Shown here: positions 2,699 to 63,178 of the stretch, piece by piece
Layout of the letters: each line of letters opens with the position of its first letter
How positions within the stretch are numbered: the first letter of the stretch is position 1
Source: Candidatus Nanoarchaeia archaeon
GTDB taxonomy: Archaea; Nanobdellota; Nanobdellia; Woesearchaeales; ARS49
Length of the DNA: 64,000 nt
NCBI GenBank assembly: GCA_041489925.1
Contig: JBGPSD010000005.1
Coordinates: 1,581 to 65,580 of the forward strand
Direction of reading: 5' to 3'
Made by a program: the position numbers and the translations under genes
The notes under the pieces: generated by a model
The model's database searches: none
Seen by the model: the letters and a program-made list of their open reading frames with translations, nothing else
Told to the model about the DNA's origin: nothing

Positions 2699-2963
2699 GC
2701 CCCTGTTGGGGCATATATTGTATATAAATGCTTTTAAACATCAAAACGATACATTTATATACTGGAGTATATAGGTTGTATACAGCAGAGACAAAAGGTA
2801 GCACGGCACAAGAAAACTGGTGCTGTGTTGGAAGACTTGTTCTTCCTGGTCTATCACTTGACAAGCAGGGCTTGTCGAGTTCTTCGCCAATCGAGATTGG
2901 CGAGATTTTGTCAATGGCAAACAAAAGGTAGAAACCGGGTAACTTGGTTTCGGAGCAGAAACA

Positions 2964-4199: not shown

Positions 4200-4272
4200 G
4201 AGCCCGTAGTTTAGCGGTCATAACGCCTCGTTGACGTCGAGGAGGTCGCCAGTTCGAATCTGGCCGGGCTCA
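4200..4272 (+). tRNA. tRNA-Val (anticodon GAC)
   Basis: Hand-folded cloverleaf: acceptor GAGCCCG/CGGGCUC, anticodon stem CCUCG/CGAGG with loop UUGACGU, T arm GCCAG-UUCGAAU-CUGGC, discriminator A. 73 nt, no encoded CCA. Confidence 0.9.
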
Positions 4273-4339
4273 TGAGCATCAGCGAATGAGCACGGACAGG
4301 CTCGTCAATCGCAATTGACCGCTGTCTGGCCGGGCTCAT
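4259..4339 (+). repeat. structured insertion E1 with duplicated tRNA-Val 3' end
   Basis: 15-nt TCTGGCCGGGCTCAT occurs at 4259-4273 and 4325-4339. The 51 nt between are GAGCATCAGCGA + ATGAGCACGGACAG (antisense of the target, 12/14) + GCTC + GTCAAT-cgca-ATTGAC + CGCTG. Confidence 0.8.
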
Positions 4340-10483: not shown

Positions 10484-11082
10484 CCTTCCTTGTGCTCTTT
10501 GGTGTGCTCGTTGTGTATCGCGACCATTGCCCTGTGCGAGGCATAAAGCCTTCCTTTCATCACCCTGAGAACGTTTTGCCCGCCACGTAATCCCCTTGCA
10601 GTAATCCTTGCCTCCTTTGCAAGCAGTTCAGCCTCTTTTGCAATCCTTGTTTCCATTGCGAGCTTTTCCGCTTCCTGTATAAGCCTTGCCTCCCTGAGCA
10701 GGACTGCCTCGTGCGCGACTTTCTGGCCGCTCTCTGCAACCTGCTCACCGACTGCGAAAATCGCAGCCACCTGCTCATAAGCCCTGAATGCAAGATAGAA
10801 CGGGAACACTGCAATCATGTCAAGCCAGTACAGCTTGAAAAACTTCCTGACATTTTTTGTCTTGAACCACTTGAAAACAAGGTCAACAACAAAGAAGAAA
10901 ACAATTATGTAGTCAAATATGGTCATCCACGGCCCGTGTTCGCTGATTGGATACAGAGTCCAGAACGGGTTTTCAACAATGAGCACGAGGGCAAGGATGA
11001 TAACCAGAAAAGGGATTATGTGGTCAGTAAAGTGCTCAAACTCATGAGTAAACCTCTGCCACAAACTCCTCTTTTTTTCCAT
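10477..11082 (-). CDS. membrane protein with a voltage-sensor-like (ion_trans S1-S3-like) N-terminus and coiled-coil tail
   Basis: FDYIIVFFFVVDLVFKWFKTKNVRKFFKLYWLDMIAVFPFYL resembles the S2-S3 segments of ion-transport proteins. No pore or selectivity filter. The ATG directly abuts the duplicated tRNA-Ser 3' end. Confidence 0.45.
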   Translation of the reverse strand: MEKKRSLWQRFTHEFEHFTDHIIPFLVIILALVLIVENPFWTLYPISEHGPWMTIFDYIIVFFFVVDLVFKWFKTKNVRKFFKLYWLDMIAVFPFYLAFRAYEQVAAIFAVGEQVAESGQKVAHEAVLLREARLIQEAEKLAMETRIAKEAELLAKEARITARGLRGGQNVLRVMKGRLYASHRAMVAIHNEHTKEHKEGY

Positions 11083-11243
11083 ACGCCGACGGCAGGACAG
11101 CGGTCAACTTCGCTGATGCTCGTTGACCAGCCATGTCCGTGCCCTGATGAGCACGGCCAGACAGCGGTCAACTTGCGAGTTGACGAGCCCTGCCTGAACC
11201 TCACATATGTTACCTACTATATATTTATACGCCGACGGCAGGA
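11081..11243 (-). repeat. composite structured insertion E4 with duplicated tRNA-Ser 3' end
   Basis: Minus-strand 17-nt TCCTGCCGTCGGCGTAT occurs at 11243-11227 and 11097-11081. The 129 nt between hold an AT-rich stretch, a near copy of the E1 3' half including a tRNA-Val 3' end (TCTGGCCGTGCTCATCAGG), and the hairpin GTCAAC-GAGCATCAGCGA-aGTTGAC followed by CGCTG. Confidence 0.75.
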
Positions 11244-11312
11244 TTTGAACCTACAATTCCTTTCGGAACCCGCTCTCAAGGCGGGCGCACTACCGGGTTA
11301 TGCGACGTCGGC
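11230..11312 (-). tRNA. tRNA-Ser (anticodon UGA)
   Basis: Hand fold: acceptor GCCGACG/CGUCGGC, anticodon stem CCCGC/GCGGG with loop CUUGAGA, long variable arm UUCCGAAAGGAAUU, T arm GUAGG-UUCAAAU-CCUGC, discriminator G. 83 nt. Confidence 0.85.
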
Positions 11313-11479
11313 ATTATACCTTGCGATTACTTGCCTCCGTCACAAGACCTCTCGTTCTGCGGAACTTCAAGGTTATGCGACGTCGGCATTATACACTGCG
11401 ATTACTGGCCGACCTCGCTGGATCCTTTGCTCTGCGGAGCTGCAGGATATGCGACGTCGGCATTATACCGTGCGATTAT
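11296..11479 (-). repeat. tandem triplication (74-75-bp period) of the tRNA-Ser 5' flank plus its first 14-17 nt
   Basis: 35-nt blocks at 11296-11330, 11371-11405 and 11445-11479 (minus strand GTAATCGCAnnGTATAATGCCGACGTCGCATAnCC). The intervening 39-40 nt are related to each other. The distal unit folds as GCCGACGTCGC...GCGAGGTCGGC. Confidence 0.8.
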
Positions 11480-11534
11480 GTTACTCATAATCAAATACAT
11501 ACTTTAAAAAACATGCGGTTCCAAGCGGTGTTTT

Positions 11535-15879: not shown

Positions 15880-17049
15880 TTATAAGTTAATACCTTTTAA
15901 AAGCGCCTTAAAGTTGCCTTTTGTCGGGCTGTGCTTGTAGTGCTTTGCCCAGTGCTTTATGTCCTTAAATGGGGCAATCCTTTGCTTTGCTGCGAATGAG
16001 CAAAGCTGAGTTACATTCCTTTGCTTTTTCACCATGTGAGTCCTTTCAAAGTCAATCAGGACAATTTTTCCTTTCGGTGTCAGTATCGCGTTCTTCAAAG
16101 GTCTTAGCATTTCCTCTTTTGCAAGCCCTGCGCTGTCAAGTGTGAATGCCTGCTCAAACAATTGCCTGAATATTTTCCTTTTCAGGGCTTTGCCTGCTGT
16201 GTCAAGAACATCCTCGACATACCTTCCAGGGATGTATTCGTAAACCACAAAATCCCTTTCAGCAGCAAAGAGTTTTGGACCCAGCCCGAGTTTGTTAACA
16301 ACATTCAGCACTTTTCCCTCTTTTGCAGGCGAGTTCACAGCAGAATCAGGGCGCTTTACCTTGACAACGCAATCTTTTCCGCAGTATTTTCCCTTGTAAA
16401 CCCAGCTGCGCTTGCCCCTTGAAAAGTAGGTTGTGCCCTTTGCCCCTGATTTTTCAATCTTTTTCAGCAATGCAGACTTTGTAATCCTGTAAACAAACAG
16501 GTCCTCAAAGAAAATGTGAAGCCTGCCAAGCTCCCTGAACTCGAAAAGGTTCTGCCTTATTGACTGCTCAATGTGGTCTTTTCCGCTAAGCGAGGAAAAC
16601 AGGAGCAAAATCACTCCATCAGCCGAAAGAAACGCGTTTGCGCTTTTCAAAAACCGCACAATTGTCTCATATCCTTTCTTTCCGCCTTCAAGCGCAACGT
16701 CCCTTTCAGGCAGCGCCGACCTGCTGGTCGGCTGGTCTGAGCTCGCTGATGCTCGCTCAGGCAGTTCCTGCGGAAGATAAGGGGGATTAAAAATTATTGT
16801 GTCAAATTCGCCCTTTACTTTTGAAAACAAATTGCTCTGCAGGCATTTTATCTTTTTGTTCCTGATATTCTTTTTGCAATGTGAGACAACAGCAGGATTG
16901 ATATCGACGGCAAGCACTGACGTTGCCTTTTTTGCAGCAGCCAGCGCCTGTATTCCTGAGCCAGTGCCCATGTCAAGGGCTCTGCCTTTTGCAAGCCTCT
17001 TGACGTGCTTTTCAAGCAATAAGGAGTCCTCTTTTGGCGGGTAAATCAT
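15880..17049 (-). CDS. HemK/Mtq2-like glutamine methyltransferase fused to a small protein-kinase-like (Bud32/RIO-like) domain
   Basis: N-terminal half: SAM motif DMGTGSGI and catalytic IIFNPPY. C-terminal half: glycine-rich GAKGTTYFSRGKRSWVYKG, VVKVKRP, and KNAIL...LIDFE resembling a kinase catalytic/DFG-like region. A 4-nt overlap links it to the downstream lipoprotein gene. Confidence 0.7.
   Translation of the reverse strand: MIYPPKEDSLLLEKHVKRLAKGRALDMGTGSGIQALAAAKKATSVLAVDINPAVVSHCKKNIRNKKIKCLQSNLFSKVKGEFDTIIFNPPYLPQELPERASASSDQPTSRSALPERDVALEGGKKGYETIVRFLKSANAFLSADGVILLLFSSLSGKDHIEQSIRQNLFEFRELGRLHIFFEDLFVYRITKSALLKKIEKSGAKGTTYFSRGKRSWVYKGKYCGKDCVVKVKRPDSAVNSPAKEGKVLNVVNKLGLGPKLFAAERDFVVYEYIPGRYVEDVLDTAGKALKRKIFRQLFEQAFTLDSAGLAKEEMLRPLKNAILTPKGKIVLIDFERTHMVKKQRNVTQLCSFAAKQRIAPFKDIKHWAKHYKHSPTKGNFKALLKGINL
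16706..16764 (-). repeat. structured insertion E2, in frame inside the methyltransferase-kinase gene
   Basis: Sense strand: CTGCCTGA | GCGAGCATCAGCGAGCTCAGACCAGCCGACCAGCAGGTCGGCG | CTGCCTGA. An 8-nt direct repeat flanks 43 nt, adding 17 codons (RASASSDQPTSRSALPE) between duplicated LPE(R) codons just after the NPPY loop. Confidence 0.75.
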
Positions 17050-25521: not shown

Positions 25522-26073
25522 TTAACGAACCATTTGCCCTGTCTGCTGCTTTGGGGCAGGCATCGGTGCAGGTTTTACAGGCACAGGCTGTGGCGCAGAA
25601 GGTGCTTTTGGAACTGCAGGCTTCGGAGCAACAGGCTTGACTTCAGCGGGCTTTGCCGCTGCTGGCTTGACTTCAGCTGGTTTTGCAGGCAGCGCCGACT
25701 TCGTCGGCTGGTCTGCACTCGCCCCTGCTCGTGCAGGCGCTTCAGGCTTCTTCTCGCCAGGCTTTGCGCCCTTCTTCGGCTTCTCTTCTTTCTTTTTCTC
25801 AACAGGAGCGCCGACAATTTCAGCCCTTACAATGCCCTTGTCGTCCTTTATAACATTGACCTTGACCCTTGAAGGCGGATTCTTGATGCCGTGGCTCCAG
25901 AGAATCAGGTTGAGGTATTTGCCGAGCTTTATGTTGTCCATTTCCTCAACTTTCATGTGGCGCATCAGGAATTCGCGTATAGCTCGCACTGCCTTTTTCG
26001 CGCGCTTGTACTTGACTGATTTCAGCCATTCCCTGCGCAAGGGTATTGTGTAAGTGCGTTCAATGTTTGCCAT
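25522..26073 (-). CDS. rpl31e: 50S ribosomal protein L31e with a long Ala/Pro/Lys-rich C-terminal extension
   Basis: The N-terminal ~90 aa (ERTYTIPLRREWLKSVKYKRAKKAVRAIREF...) are L31e-like. The remaining ~90 aa are low-complexity. Confidence 0.88.
   Translation of the reverse strand: MANIERTYTIPLRREWLKSVKYKRAKKAVRAIREFLMRHMKVEEMDNIKLGKYLNLILWSHGIKNPPSRVKVNVIKDDKGIVRAEIVGAPVEKKKEEKPKKGAKPGEKKPEAPARAGASADQPTKSALPAKPAEVKPAAAKPAEVKPVAPKPAVPKAPSAPQPVPVKPAPMPAPKQQTGQMVR
25684..25738 (-). repeat. structured insertion E3, in frame in the L31e tail
   Basis: Sense strand: GCCTGCA | CGAGCAGGGGCGAGTGCAGACCAGCCGACGAAGTCGGCGCT | GCCTGCA. Encodes ...RAGASADQPTKSALPA... Hairpins CTGCAC/GTGCAG and GCCGAC/GTCGGC parallel those of E2. 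Confidence 0.7.
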
Positions 26074-50911: not shown

Positions 50912-52171
50912 TTATTTCTGCAGCGTGAGAGTCTTCAGAATTGTCGGCGAGACTGTCAGCTGCGGTTTTACTATAATCGGGGTGAATGTGGACGTGGCAG
51001 GCGGATTAGGTGATGCGCCGCACTCTCCGTCATCACAGCCATACGGGCAGGCAATGTTTTCAGAGGCAAGATTGCCGCTCTGGCAGTAATACTCAAGCAC
51101 TTCCCTTGTGTTTGCACAGGAGTCAGTGTAAGTGTTTGAACTCTGCGTGCCGTCTGTGTAAGAGGTTGTTAGCGTCACTGTTCCCTTGTTCTGCGCATCC
51201 CTTCCCTTGTCATTTTCCCTGCAGGTTGTTGTTCCTGTCCTTGTGTCGCCGCCAGTGTAAACAGTCACAGGTGTTGTCGGGGTTGTTGGCTGCTGTTCGC
51301 ACATCTTCCTGACGCAGTAAGCATATGTTGTCGCGCTGCCGTCTGCGCTGTTCCAGCAGTCTCTTTCGCAGTCTGTTGGCTTTCCGCAGTCAACATCAAG
51401 GCAAATCGCAAGAGCCTCCTTGTTATTGCTGTATTTTGTCCTGCAGTTCTCCTCGCAGGTCTGTTCGCGGCATTCCCTTTGCACGCATGCCTGGTAAACT
51501 GTCGGGCTTCCCTGTGATTTCTTCCAGCAGGATGTTTCGCAAGGGTCTCCCTGGTCGCAGTCAAGCCGTAAGCACAGTGCATAAGCATCTTTGTTTGAGC
51601 CGTATTTTGTCTTGCAGTTTTCCTCGCAAGTATTGCATTCCCTTTGCACGCATGCCTGGTAAACTGTCGGGCTTCCTTTTGATGTTTTCCAGCAGGCTGT
51701 TTCGCAGGGGTCTCCTGGGTTGCAGTCAAGCCTTAAGCACAATGCATAAGCGTCCTTGTTTGAGCCGTATCTTGTCCTGCATGTGTCTTCGCAGGTTTCA
51801 GGTGCGCACCGCTCTTTTACGCAAAGGTCGTATTTTGTCTTATCCTTTCCAAATGCCTGCCTGCAGTATTCCTCGCACGTGCAGTTCTGCTGTTTAGGGC
51901 AGTCAGGGCAAGTTTCGCATGAAGGGCATTGCGGGCATCTTTGTATTTCCCCGCAGCCTGCATTTACGCTTATTCCGCCGCCTGAGCCGGTAATAACTCC
52001 GTTGCCTACTGTCACTGTTGATGCCCTCAAGTAGGGGACAAAAAACAATAGAAAGATTATCGCCATCACTTCAAGAAGTATAAGCACAAGCAGGGGCTTT
52101 GGGATGATATAGGCACGCCTACCTGTGAAAAAAGCAATGGAATAATCCTTTGCTGCCATGGTATCAGACAT
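50912..52171 (-). CDS. membrane-anchored Cys-rich repeat protein
   Basis: N-terminal TM segment. Three ~54-aa repeats (CE(D/E)(T/N)C(R/K)T(R/K)Y(G/S)(S/N)NK(D/E)A-x-A-(L/I)-C-L...). C-terminal C-x-(E/D)-x-D...YYC...C-x-YGCDDGEC module. Confidence 0.6.
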   Translation of the reverse strand: MSDTMAAKDYSIAFFTGRRAYIIPKPLLVLILLEVMAIIFLLFFVPYLRASTVTVGNGVITGSGGGISVNAGCGEIQRCPQCPSCETCPDCPKQQNCTCEEYCRQAFGKDKTKYDLCVKERCAPETCEDTCRTRYGSNKDAYALCLRLDCNPGDPCETACWKTSKGSPTVYQACVQRECNTCEENCKTKYGSNKDAYALCLRLDCDQGDPCETSCWKKSQGSPTVYQACVQRECREQTCEENCRTKYSNNKEALAICLDVDCGKPTDCERDCWNSADGSATTYAYCVRKMCEQQPTTPTTPVTVYTGGDTRTGTTTCRENDKGRDAQNKGTVTLTTSYTDGTQSSNTYTDSCANTREVLEYYCQSGNLASENIACPYGCDDGECGASPNPPATSTFTPIIVKPQLTVSPTILKTLTLQK

Positions 52172-62961: not shown

Positions 62962-63010
62962 GTTGTTTTCCAAAACCTTTTTAACCACATTATTGATTTT
63001 CAAGGGTATT

Positions 63011-63100
63011 GGGCTCTTAGCTCAGTCTGGTAGAGCATTCGGCTCTTACGCTTATTGCGCAGAAACCGAATGGCCAAGGGTTCAAATCCCTTAGAGCCCG
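63011..63100 (+). tRNA. tRNA-Lys (anticodon CUU) with a 16-nt intron
   Basis: Hand fold: acceptor GGGCUCU/AGAGCCC, D arm GCUC-AGUCUGGUA-GAGC, anticodon stem UUCGG/CCGAA with loop CUCUUA[intron]A, T arm AAGGG-UUCAAAU-CCCUU, discriminator G. Confidence 0.85.
63049..63064 (+). other. putative tRNA intron at canonical position 37/38
   Basis: CGCUUAUUGCGCAGAA interrupts the anticodon loop and contains an internal CGC/GCG helix. Exact boundaries not verified by a BHB fold. Confidence 0.6.
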
Positions 63101-63178
63101 TAATGAGTAACAACGAATGGAGGAATCTAAGGCTGGACGACCGCTGTCGGCCGCTGCCTTAGAGCCCGTAATGAGTAA
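63089..63178 (+). repeat. structured insertion E5 with duplicated tRNA-Lys 3' end plus downstream gene start
   Basis: 22-nt CCTTAGAGCCCGTAATGAGTAA occurs at 63089-63110 and 63157-63178. The 46-nt insert CAACGAATGGAGGAATCTAAGGCTGGACGACCGCTGTCGGCCGCTG contains an antisense TCTAAGG and ends in GTCGGCCGCTG like E2/E3. Confidence 0.8.

What the first reader, a model, noticed from the sequence alone, without database searches (positions are those of the whole stretch)
16706..16764. In-frame 51-nt structured insertion right after the NPPY catalytic loop
Removing one repeat plus the 43-nt insert restores ...NPPYLPQELPERDVALEGG..., a normal HemK-family spacing. The insert adds RASASSDQPTSRSALPE with no stop. 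It folds into two hairpins (CTGAGC/GCTCAG with the family loop; GCCGAC-cagcag-GTCGGC) separated by ACCA. Its length is a multiple of three. It is either a tolerated selfish insertion or an RNA-level element (a splicing-endonuclease substrate, as in crenarchaeal cbf5 pre-mRNA) removed before translation.
Basis: partly seen in the sequence, partly recalled or inferred. Interest (0 to 1): 0.65.

Follow-up and report, generated by a model that had tools for sequence, protein, structure and literature searches.

The report
Tiny mobile hairpin element inserted in-frame
A 51-base, two-hairpin piece of repeated DNA sits in frame inside an archaeal release-factor methyltransferase gene; it is most likely translated as a floppy 17-residue loop rather than spliced out, and it belongs to an apparently undescribed family of 40-150-base elements that mostly sit behind tRNA genes and carry an inverted copy of their own insertion site.

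Summary
On the minus strand at 16706-16764, an 8-nt direct repeat (CTGCCTGA) flanks 43 nt that form two hairpins separated by ACCA. This adds RASASSDQPTSRSALPE eight residues after NPPY of an MTQ2/HemK2 methyltransferase. All 27 Woesearchaeota orthologs lack it, including ~93% identical sister DNA. The same insert is on independently assembled contigs. AlphaFold2 models it as the only disordered stretch.

It is not a one-off. The window holds a second copy in the L31e tail and related elements behind all three tRNA genes. About 20 more copies occur in Woesearchaeota/Nanoarchaeia contigs.

The shared design is T – cap – T' – core hairpin ending GCTG – T. T is a locus-specific direct repeat of 5-22 nt, and T' is its reverse complement.

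The splicing-endonuclease reading is not supported. There is no bulge-helix-bulge motif, whereas a real tRNA intron in the window scores in the top 1%. Copies in five different proteins all keep the same open frame, while only about a third of non-coding copies have lengths divisible by three.

Best reading: a non-autonomous mobile hairpin element, inserted at DNA level and translated. The insertion mechanism is inferred (copy-choice or snap-back). No transposase was found.

The parts
15880..17049 (-). Host gene: 389-aa MTQ2/HemK2-type protein (release-factor glutamine) methyltransferase fused to a Bud32/APH-like C-terminal domain. NPPY is at residues 88-91.
   Evidence: ORF. TIGR00537 E=1.7e-38 and PF05175. 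27 orthologs of 370-375 aa without the insert.
16757..16764 (-). Left (5' in gene sense) copy of the 8-nt direct repeat CTGCCTGA. Its last 4 nt are also the start of the hairpin-1 5' arm.
   Evidence: Ortholog empty sites read GAACTGCCGGAGAGG, GAACTGCCAGAAAGG and GAACTTGCTGAAAGG.
16714..16756 (-). 43-nt unique part of the insert: GC + cap loop + T' + ACCA + core hairpin + G.
   Evidence: it is the only large indel between this gene and the sister locus L093.
16737..16760 (-). Hairpin 1: CTGAGC / GCTCAG around the 12-nt cap GAGCATCAGCGA (16743-16754). The cap folds as tandem G.A plus a 2-bp mini-stem.
16709..16736 (-). Conserved family-A core ACCA-GCCGAC-loop-GTCGGC-GCTGCC (hairpin 2 plus flanks). 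It is invariant in 22 copies from many contigs.
16706..16713 (-). Right copy of the direct repeat CTGCCTGA.
25684..25737 (-). Second family-A copy, in frame in the Lys/Pro/Ala-rich C-terminal tail of ribosomal protein L31e (gene 25522-26073, minus strand): CCTGCA|CGAGCAGGGGCGAGTGCAG|ACCAGCCGACgaaGTCGGCGCTG|CCTGCA. It encodes ARAGASADQPTKSALP.
   Evidence: (D18). It is present in five L31e lineages.
4259..4339 (+). Related element directly behind tRNA-Val (4200-4272): 15-nt repeat TCTGGCCGGGCTCAT (the tRNA 3' end), cap GAGCATCAGCGA, a 14-nt inverted copy of the repeat, then family-B core GCTCGTCAATcgcaATTGACCGCTGT.
11081..11244 (-). Composite 146-nt insert behind tRNA-Ser (11313-11229, minus strand), flanked by a 16-17-nt repeat of the tRNA 3' end. 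It holds two family-B cores, one cap and a captured tRNA-Val-like repeat. It is absent from sister locus L093 and from L125, and present in diverged form in L124.
63089..63178 (+). Related element behind tRNA-Lys(CTT) (63010-63101): 22-nt repeat CCTTAGAGCCCGTAATGAGTAA, inverted copy TCTAAGG, core CTGGACGACcgctGTCGGCCGCTG.

Best explanation
The 51 nt are a recent DNA-level insertion of one member of a dispersed family of very small (about 40-150 nt), non-autonomous hairpin elements found in Woesearchaeota and Nanoarchaeia. The insertion duplicated, or landed by microhomology on, the target CTGCCTGA. It is transcribed and translated with the gene and adds a disordered 17-residue surface loop that the methyltransferase tolerates.

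The family design is T - (optional cap GAGCAnnnGCGA) - T' - core hairpin flanked by ACCA/GCTC on the left and (C)GCTG on the right - T. T is a locus-specific direct repeat that starts with CC (CT at tRNA-Val). T' is its reverse complement.

Shown here: the insertion is real, is specific to this lineage, and is a member of the family. The family architecture is also shown, as are frame preservation in coding copies, the disordered model, and the absence of splice signals.

Inferred: the elements spread by a copy-choice process. In this model a 3' end at a break or stalled fork is extended on another copy of the core, entering and leaving through CC/GG and short target microhomology. Snap-back synthesis on the single-stranded target then creates the inverted copy T', and the repeat length reflects a variable stagger. 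tRNA 3' flanks are the preferred landing sites. Coding copies survive only where they are in frame and fall in disordered segments.
For: Lineage-specific insertion:
- 27 of 27 orthologs lack it, including two at 94% identity.
- Sister DNA at about 93% identity has it as the only large indel in the gene.
- Ortholog empty sites read CTG CCN GAR AGG.
- The same insert is on independent contigs.

Family membership:
- A second copy lies in L31e with compensatory stem changes, CTGAGC/GCTCAG versus CTGCAC/GTGCAG.
- 22 distinct copies share an invariant core.
- The T':T helix covaries: score 0.320 versus 0.106 in shuffles, 0 of 500 shuffles as high, and 0.06-0.12 when slid.
- A strict search for the full architecture gives 8 hits in 293 kb and 0 in shuffled sequence.
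- 8 of 16 tRNA genes in the held archaeal loci have the element behind them, with a repeat of the tRNA 3' end.

Translated rather than removed:
- Copies in L31e, uS13 (two copies), aIF2-gamma, a HIT protein and this methyltransferase all keep the host ORF open in the same phase, giving A.(A/S)ADQPT(K/SR)SALP.
- Repeat-to-repeat periods of non-coding copies are 48, 48, 43, 46, 68, 51, 99, 56, 66, 68, 146, 125 and 50, so only 5 of 13 are divisible by 3.
- The AlphaFold2 model has mean pLDDT 87.4, and only residues 95-113 fall below 50.

Copy-choice mechanism:
- Repeat length varies from 5 to 22 nt.
- T' matches unrelated functional targets (different tRNA 3' ends), so it must be made from the target.
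- The tRNA-Ser composite carries a foreign tRNA-Val-type repeat next to a core. This shows that donor flanks are copied along.
- In L018, T + loop + T' is a perfect 24-nt palindrome.
Against: - No transposase, reverse transcriptase, integrase or HUH gene is present in about 56 of the 64 kb checked by Pfam. No long element with the same ends was found. The machinery is therefore unknown.
- Only one fresh filled/empty pair exists for a coding copy.
- The flanking repeats allow precise loss by slippage. The tRNA-Ser site is filled in two lineages and empty in two others, so absence does not always mean a recent gain.
- The L31e copy is far better conserved at synonymous sites than its host gene: 85-94% identical codons versus 44-69%. 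That argues for a constraint on the nucleic acid, or for gene conversion, rather than pure junk.
- In the methyltransferase copy, T' pairs with only 4 target nucleotides plus 2 nucleotides of the insert. Here T' looks donor-derived rather than target-made.
- No expression or peptide data are available.
Confidence: 0.75

Rival explanations
1. RNA-level intervening sequence: the 51 nt (or 43 nt plus one repeat) form a bulge-helix-bulge substrate. The archaeal splicing endonuclease and ligase cut it out of the pre-mRNA, as in crenarchaeal cbf5, so the protein has normal spacing.
For: It is a short structured insert in an archaeal ORF. The flanking repeat would let splicing restore the ancestral sequence exactly. 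The organism does splice: tRNA-Lys in the window has an intron.
Against: The best in-register BHB score is 6 (H 3/4, h 2, h' 1), equalled or beaten by 34% of random 51-nt windows. The window's real tRNA intron scores 10, in the top 1%. No common BHB register was found in six family copies. Because exon end and intron end are the same repeat, the central helix would have to be self-complementary, and it is not. All coding copies are stop-free and in one phase in five proteins, whereas non-coding copies have arbitrary lengths. Rfam finds nothing.
Confidence: 0.04
2. Translational bypass: ribosomes take off at the left repeat and land at the identical right repeat, skipping the hairpin. T4 gene 60 and the 'byp' elements of Magnusiomyces mitochondria work this way (own knowledge).
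For: There are matching take-off and landing codons (CUG CCU GA on both sides). A stable hairpin starts right at the take-off site. The length of about 50 nt fits.
Against: There is no stop codon or frameshift after the take-off site. The insert is an open 17-codon frame. Every coding family member is in frame and stop-free, which bypassing would make unnecessary. Most family copies are non-coding.
Confidence: 0.03
3. Functional module rather than selfish DNA. Either the hairpins are a cis-acting RNA or DNA signal (a binding site for a protein of the translation or tRNA-processing apparatus), or the peptide A.ADQPTKSALP is a short linear motif. In either case it has been recruited into translation-related genes and tRNA trailers and is kept by selection.
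For: Nucleotide-level conservation of the L31e copy exceeds that of synonymous sites in the host gene. There is compensatory change, with a G.T intermediate, in hairpin 1. The hosts are all linked to translation: L31e, uS13, aIF2-gamma, MTQ2 and tRNA genes. Transcription sense is the same in all coding copies and all 8 tRNA-flank copies.
Against: The methyltransferase copy is confined to one lineage and missing in 27 orthologs. The tRNA-Ser copy is present or absent among close relatives. Copies also lie antisense upstream of genes (L018, L066, L072). Small DPANN genomes are dominated by translation genes anyway. Conservation can also come from recent spread or from gene conversion.
Confidence: 0.13
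4. Purely local event: replication slippage or a quasi-palindrome template switch created a one-off duplication with hairpins, unrelated to any mobile family.
For: It is flanked by a short direct repeat and contains inverted copies of local sequence.
Against: 28 nt of the insert are identical to the core of 21 other copies at unrelated loci and in other genomes. The 12-nt cap is identical to two other loci in the window.
Confidence: 0.02

Closest known systems
Rickettsia palindromic elements (RPEs)
   Same: Short palindromic repeats that insert in frame into unrelated protein-coding genes. They are translated as extra peptide segments compatible with the fold, and they also occur in non-coding regions (PMC10969869; Ogata et al. 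2000, own knowledge).
   Different: RPEs are about 100-150 bp and bacterial, and they have no reported inverted copy of the target. The present elements are 40-70 nt in simple form and archaeal. They prefer tRNA 3' flanks and have the T - T' - T arrangement with variable repeat length.
MITEs and REP/REPIN elements
   Same: Small, multicopy, non-autonomous and hairpin-forming, with flanking direct repeats in the case of MITEs. Archaeal MITEs are known in Sulfolobus and haloarchaea (PMC10969869).
   Different: There are no terminal inverted repeats bounded by a fixed-length target duplication. The sequence left of the core is the inverse of the target, not a second direct copy. The repeat length is 5-22 nt. 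No parent IS or RAYT gene was seen.
Archaeal BHB introns in protein genes (cbf5) and transposed tRNA introns
   Same: A short intervening sequence in an archaeal ORF, with intron-like complementarity to flanking 'exon' sequence.
   Different: No bulge-helix-bulge geometry. Coding copies always have lengths divisible by three and are open. Most copies lie outside genes.
Templated insertions with snap-back synthesis in alternative end joining (polymerase theta type; PMC2943611, PMC9962433, listed but not read in detail)
   Same: Junctions that contain direct and inverted copies of the flank, joined through microhomology.
   Different: Those insertions are unique scars without a conserved, repeatedly used core. 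They are described in eukaryotes.
IS200/IS605 (and derived PATE) transposon-directed target selection
   Same: A subterminal hairpin with an adjacent short sequence that pairs with the target or cleavage site (own knowledge: Barabas et al. 2008).
   Different: IS200/IS605 elements make no target duplication and use a fixed 4-5-nt target. They need a TnpA. Here the target differs at each locus and is duplicated.
tRNA-gene-targeting integrative elements (tyrosine-integrase att sites)
   Same: A direct repeat running from the T-stem 3' strand past the tRNA 3' end on both sides of the insert.
   Different: The inserts are only 44-130 nt, carry no integrase, and also occur at non-tRNA sites with 5-11-nt repeats.
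Translational bypass elements (T4 gene 60, mitochondrial byps)
   Same: About 50 nt, a hairpin, and matching codons at both ends.
   Different: No stop or frameshift, so the insert is readable in frame.

Membership tests
Archaeal BHB (splicing-endonuclease) intron | Two 3-nt bulges on opposite strands separated by a 4-bp helix, with the splice sites inside the bulges (hBHBh' or a relaxed form) | tested here: not met
   The best in-register candidate is H 3/4, h 2, h' 1 (score 6). 34% of random windows do as well. The control tRNA-Lys intron scores 10, top 1%. No shared register was found in six copies.
Archaeal BHB (splicing-endonuclease) intron | Removal from the RNA (spliced junction, circular intron) | not testable with these tools
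Archaeal BHB (splicing-endonuclease) intron | No constraint on intron length or reading frame | tested here: not met
   Coding copies in five proteins are all open and in one phase. Only 5 of 13 non-coding copies have periods divisible by three.
In-frame palindromic repeat of the RPE kind | Multicopy repeat with hairpin potential | tested here: met
   22 distinct family-A copies plus family-B and variant copies. Folds shown.
In-frame palindromic repeat of the RPE kind | Inserted in frame in unrelated protein genes and absent from orthologs | tested here: met
   Hosts are MTQ2, L31e, uS13, aIF2-gamma and a HIT protein. It is absent from 27 MTQ2 orthologs.
In-frame palindromic repeat of the RPE kind | Insert lies at the protein surface and is compatible with the fold | tested here: met
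   In the AlphaFold2 model only residues 95-113 have pLDDT below 50, and the rest of the model has mean pLDDT 87.4. Other copies are in terminal Lys/Pro/Ala tails.
In-frame palindromic repeat of the RPE kind | Sequence homology to the Rickettsia RPE families | not tested
   No comparison was run. The host domain, size (51 versus about 150 bp) and architecture differ, so only the kind is claimed, not membership.
MITE (transposase-mobilised miniature element) | Terminal inverted repeats matching a parent IS, and a target duplication of fixed length | tested here: not met
   Repeat length is 5-22 nt. The left neighbour of the core is an inverted, not direct, copy of the target. No parent element or transposase was found in the window or loci.
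IS200/IS605-type (PATE) element | No target duplication, a fixed 4-5-nt target 5' of the left end, and TnpA (Y1 HUH) in the genome | tested here: not met
   Direct repeats are present and the targets differ at each locus. Presence of TnpA elsewhere in the genome could not be tested.
Translational bypass element | Stop codon or frameshift inside the gap, making bypass obligatory | tested here: not met
   The insert is an open 17-codon frame.
Known RNA family (Rfam 15) | Covariance-model match at or near the gathering score | tested here: not met
   The only hit is a chance-level snoU13 match (10.8 bits against a gathering score of 46, E 6.5). The whole window gives only the three tRNAs.

The most novel reading that the evidence does not exclude
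These are a previously unrecognised class of ultra-small archaeal mobile elements. Their insertion chemistry writes an inverted copy of the target next to a conserved hairpin, giving T - T' - core - T. This would happen either by snap-back or template-switch synthesis on a dedicated hairpin template, or the inverted copy would then act as a guide for target choice. The elements home to tRNA 3' ends and seed in-frame peptide insertions in ribosomal proteins and translation factors of DPANN archaea. The nucleotide-level conservation would then reflect a recognition site for an unknown host or element enzyme.
Probability: 0.3. Interest if true: 0.8.

Novelty: new variant of a known kind. Interest (0 to 1): 0.58.

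Why it matters
This is a clean archaeal case of selfish DNA becoming part of an essential-pathway protein: MTQ2 methylates the release factor. It gives a parallel to the Rickettsia palindromic elements in a different domain of life and at a third of the size.

The family has properties that no described prokaryotic repeat combines:
- preference for tRNA 3' flanks
- target repeats of variable length
- an inverted copy of the target that covaries with it across unrelated loci

If the mechanism is a dedicated copy-choice or guide-based insertion, it would be a new way of moving DNA in archaea with tiny genomes and few recognisable transposases.

There are practical consequences too. Such inserts inflate apparent protein divergence in DPANN genomes, create false 'novel loops' in structure prediction, and can confuse tRNA and gene annotation.

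Tried and rejected
1. BHB intron. An in-register test on six copies, an unconstrained scan and a scored test with a positive control and random background were run. The first strict filter missed the real tRNA-Lys intron because its central helix has a C.C mismatch, so the test was redone with a relaxed score. The insert still scores at background level.

2. Rfam at permissive and gathering thresholds gave nothing.

3. Box C/D sRNA reading of the antisense strand, checked by eye. There is an internal CUGA...UGAUGC pair but no terminal C and D boxes, so it was rejected.

4. Viral origin. Two IMG/VR scans with family-A and family-B cores gave only chance matches without the architecture.

5. Autonomous parent. 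A search for the right-hand repeat up to 3 kb away and anywhere in each locus found none. Pfam maps of about 56 of the 64 kb of the window and of related loci show no transposase, RT or integrase.

6. Peptide-level census. One protein search failed because the query was too short. A second, with a 52-aa uS13 tail, returned a single weak hit and was uninformative.

7. The genome-contig scan pattern was too loose. 58 of 64 hits were high-GC actinobacterial chance matches and were discarded on composition and missing architecture.

8. Literature searches for a prior description found none in the held library, which is not exhaustive. The searches covered archaeal in-frame palindromic elements, BHB introns in DPANN protein genes, Woesearchaeota repeats, and snap-back templated insertions in prokaryotes.

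9. The idea that the family-A stem derives from the tRNA-Ser acceptor stem preceded by ACCA (a tRNA minihelix or retro-copy) was left unresolved. The match is only 6-7 bp.
Full report
**1. Observation**

The gene is on the minus strand (15880-17049, 389 aa). In gene sense the region reads GAA CTGCCTGA [GCGAGCATCAGCGAGCTCAGACCAGCCGACCAGCAGGTCGGCG] CTGCCTGA AAGG.
- The two 8-nt repeats lie at 16764-16757 and 16713-16706, and 43 nt lie between them.
- The added 51 nt encode RASASSDQPTSRSALPE with no stop.
- Hairpin 1 is CTGAGC/GCTCAG around GAGCATCAGCGA. Hairpin 2 is GCCGAC/GTCGGC around CAGCAG. ACCA separates them.
- This is the minimum-energy fold as RNA (z -2.2) and as DNA on either strand (z -2.4 and -1.9).
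- Neither pattern is expected by chance in the window.

**2. Host gene and age of the insert**

- The N-terminal half is an archaeal HemK2/MTQ2 methyltransferase (TIGR00537 E=1.7e-38, PF05175). The C-terminal half is weakly Bud32/APH-like.
- A database search returned more than 1,200 relatives, and the named ones are Woesearchaeota or Nanoarchaeota.
- In an alignment of the query with 27 of them, none has the 17 residues. This includes two at 94% identity over aligned columns. All read NPPYLPQE-L(P/A)ERDVALEGG or an equivalent.
- A syntenic sister locus (L093, about 93% nucleotide identity over 21 kb) differs in this gene by one large indel, which is the insert.
- Empty sites in three relatives read GAA CTT GCT GAA AGG, GAA CTG CCG GAG AGG and GAA CTG CCA GAA AGG. 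A single CTGCC(T)GA in the ancestor is therefore plausible.
- The insert-bearing protein is found on three contigs, from a JGI metagenome, an NCBI MAG and a third record. This excludes an assembly artefact.
- An AlphaFold2 model built on the ortholog alignment is confident (mean pLDDT 87.4, pTM 0.82). The exception is residues 95-113, the insert, which is an unstructured loop between the NPPY strand and the next helix.

**3. It is one of a family**

- A repeat search found a second copy 9 kb away (D18), in frame in the Lys/Pro/Ala-rich tail of ribosomal protein L31e. Its core CAGACCAGCCGAC...GTCGGCGCTGCCTG is identical. The loop of hairpin 2 is 3 nt instead of 6. The stem of hairpin 1 has changed on both sides, from CTGAGC/GCTCAG to CTGCAC/GTGCAG.
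- Pattern scans were run on one genome per species and on JGI metagenomes. After high-GC chance hits were discarded, they gave about 20 further copies on contigs of 43-58% G+C, labelled Nanoarchaeia or mislabelled Methanosarcinales.
- The 12-nt loop GAGCATCAGCGA occurs exactly three times in the window. The other two are in elements immediately behind tRNA-Val and tRNA-Ser. These have a different but similarly shaped core, GTCAAY-loop-RTTGAC-CGCTGT.
- The third tRNA gene of the window, tRNA-Lys, also has an element behind it.
- Among 16 tRNA genes in the held archaeal loci, 8 have a repeat of their 3' end (6-22 nt) with such an element between the copies. In every case the element is downstream and in the tRNA's orientation.

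**4. Architecture**

All copies share the plan T - spacer or cap - T' - core - T.
- T is a direct repeat specific to each locus. Examples are CCTGA here, CCTGCA in L31e, CCTCGGTTTTG, CCCGCGCAACT, CCTGCAAATTGGAGCGT, and the last 13-22 nt of five different tRNAs plus trailer.
- T starts with CC (CT at tRNA-Val) and begins one base after the GCTG (GCTGC or GCTGT) that ends every core.
- T' lies directly before ACCA (family A) or GCTC (family B). It is the reverse complement of the first 4-14 nt of T.
- On an alignment of 22 family-A copies, the six core pairs never vary. The ten T':T pairs covary strongly: 55 cells changed on both sides versus 20.6 in shuffles, covariation 0.320 versus 0.106, 0 of 500 shuffles as high, and 0.06-0.12 when slid.
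- A strict search for the whole arrangement finds 8 cases in 293 kb and none in shuffled sequence.
- In L018, T, a 4-nt centre and T' form a perfect 24-nt palindrome.
- Behind tRNA-Val, T' is a 14-nt inverted copy of the tRNA 3' end with 12 pairs.
- In the methyltransferase copy, the hairpin-1 5' arm is 4 nt of the target repeat plus GC of the insert.

**5. Removed or translated?**

A script scored every splice register allowed by the repeats for bulge-helix-bulge geometry.
- The window's own tRNA-Lys intron served as positive control. It scores 10, a value reached by 1% of random windows.
- The methyltransferase insert scores 6, reached by 34% of random windows.
- The L31e and tRNA-flank copies score 4-8, in different registers.

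Because the exon end and the would-be intron end are the same repeat, the central helix would have to be self-complementary, and it is not.

Family-A copies inside genes occur in five unrelated proteins: the L31e C-tail, the uS13 N-tail (two copies), the aIF2-gamma N-tail, the C-tail of a HIT protein, and this enzyme.
- All are on the sense strand and in the same phase.
- All are stop-free and encode A.(A/S)ADQPT(K/SR)SALP.

Non-coding copies have repeat-to-repeat periods of 48, 48, 43, 46, 68, 51, 99, 56, 66, 68, 146, 125 and 50 nt, so 5 of 13 are divisible by three. Length is therefore not intrinsically a multiple of three, and only frame-preserving copies survive in genes. That is expected if the insert is translated. 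It is not expected if the insert is spliced out or bypassed by the ribosome. Four of the six frames of the 51 nt, and all six frames of the core, are open (for the 51 nt; the core frames by reading the sequence).

**6. A complication**

The L31e copy is present in five lineages whose L31e domains share only 44-69% identical codons at conserved residues. Within the element, 85-94% of codons are identical, and the ten core codons are 9-10 of 10 identical. One lineage has a G.T intermediate in hairpin 1. The nucleic acid is therefore constrained, homogenised by conversion from other copies, or repeatedly re-inserted. This keeps open a functional reading, such as a binding or recognition site, at modest probability.

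The tRNA-Ser site is filled in the window and in a distant relative. In that relative (L124) the first core stem has changed compensatorily, from GTCAAC/GTTGAC to GCCAGC/GCTGGC. The site is empty in the sister and in a fourth lineage. Either the element was lost precisely twice between its repeats, or it was gained twice.

**7. Mechanism (inferred)**

- A classical transposase with a fixed stagger does not fit repeats of 5-22 nt.
- An element that simply carries its own hairpin does not fit T' matching unrelated, functional targets.
- The tRNA-Ser composite contains a core followed by a foreign repeat nearly identical to the tRNA-Val 3' end. Copying therefore runs from a donor copy into its flank.

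The simplest scheme that yields T - cap - T' - core - T on one strand, and its complement on the other, has three steps:
- Two 3' ends carrying T arise at a staggered break or stalled fork.
- One end is extended on a donor core, entered through the CC/GG microhomology. Snap-back synthesis copies the single-stranded target into its inverse.
- The two extended ends anneal through the new complementary segments and are filled in.

For the coding subfamily, including this insert, a conserved unit of about 50 nt bounded by CCTG appears to have been copied into sites that share 4-8 nt with its ends. Here that is CTGCCTGA, which matches the element's own GCTGCCTGA.

None of these steps is demonstrated. 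No candidate enzyme gene lies in the window, no long parent element was found, and viral contigs hold no true copies.

**8. Comparison with what is known**

- In kind, this is closest to the Rickettsia palindromic elements. Those are short palindromic repeats inserted in frame in many genes and compatible with protein folds (PMC10969869). They are three times longer, bacterial, and without the inverted target copy.
- It fails the defining tests for a MITE (terminal inverted repeats, fixed target duplication, parent IS).
- It also fails the tests for an IS200/IS605-type element, a BHB intron, a bypass element, and any Rfam family.
- The direct-plus-inverted flank copies resemble templated insertions of alternative end joining (papers listed). 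Those are unique scars without a reused core.
- Four literature searches found no description of such elements in DPANN archaea. The library is incomplete, so prior description cannot be excluded.

**9. Verdict**

The single insert is of moderate interest. The family it reveals is more interesting: its tRNA-flank preference, in-frame copies in ribosomal proteins and translation factors, and a covarying inverted copy of the target appear to be undescribed. I rate it a new variant of a known kind, with about a 30% chance that the insertion mechanism is of a new type.

Noticed in passing
window 11289-11512 (minus-strand sense), compared with L093 15100-15220: A 75-nt unit made of a TATAAT-type promoter box plus the first ~17 nt of tRNA-Ser (GCCGACGTCGCATAACC) is tandemly repeated three times upstream of and into the tRNA-Ser gene. 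The sister genome has two copies. These are extra promoter and 5'-fragment copies of unknown significance.
   Followed up: partly
window 15880-17049 (-), residues ~195-389: The MTQ2/HemK2 methyltransferase is fused to a Bud32/APH-like kinase-fold domain in all 27 aligned Woesearchaeota orthologs. AlphaFold2 models the domain confidently. A Trm112 gene lies about 4 kb away. The fusion itself may deserve a look.
   Followed up: partly
window 63010-63101 (+): tRNA-Lys(CTT) carries a 16-nt intron at the canonical 37/38 position. Its bulge-helix-bulge has a C.C mismatch in the central 4-bp helix (H 3/4, h 7, h' 2). It was used as the positive control.
   Followed up: yes
window 16743-16754, 4274-4285, 11110-11121; core ends at 16711-16715 and elsewhere: The cap GAGCATCAGCGA contains CAGCG, the reverse complement of the CGCTG that ends every core. 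The motif therefore borders the target-derived segments on both strands and is a possible nicking or recognition site. The family-A stem GCCGAC/GTCGGCG also equals the tRNA-Ser acceptor stem. Both points are unexplained.
   Followed up: no
window 2791-2931 (+): An 11-nt direct repeat, ACAAAAGGTAG, flanks about 120 nt containing two good hairpins (CTTGACAAGCagGGCTTGTCGAG and TTCGCCAATCgagATTGGCGAG), just upstream of the ATG at 2964. It may be another small element of a different type, or chance.
   Followed up: no
L090 176-340 (+), behind tRNA-Leu: A 145-nt insert is flanked by a 19-nt repeat of the tRNA-Leu 3' end. It holds three hairpins and an internal third partial copy of the repeat plus 9 nt of the right flank. 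This looks like a multi-step template-switch product. The same short contig also has a family-A copy antisense, just upstream of the tRNA 5' end.
   Followed up: partly
L083 2685-2790 (+): The N-terminal extension of ribosomal protein uS13 carries two family-A copies 81 nt apart, giving a tandem ...GASADQPTKSALP...GASADQPTKSALP... peptide.
   Followed up: partly
window 51299-51796: Three tandem copies of a ~165-nt unit (63-88% identical) lie inside or near the ORFs at 50912-52171. They were not examined.
   Followed up: no
L018, L055, L056, L050, L051 (genome contigs records CAYYLN01, CAYGVI01, CAYSMN01): The records are titled 'uncultured Methanosarcinales archaeon'. All of these records hold family-A elements. 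The taxonomic labels look wrong.
   Followed up: no
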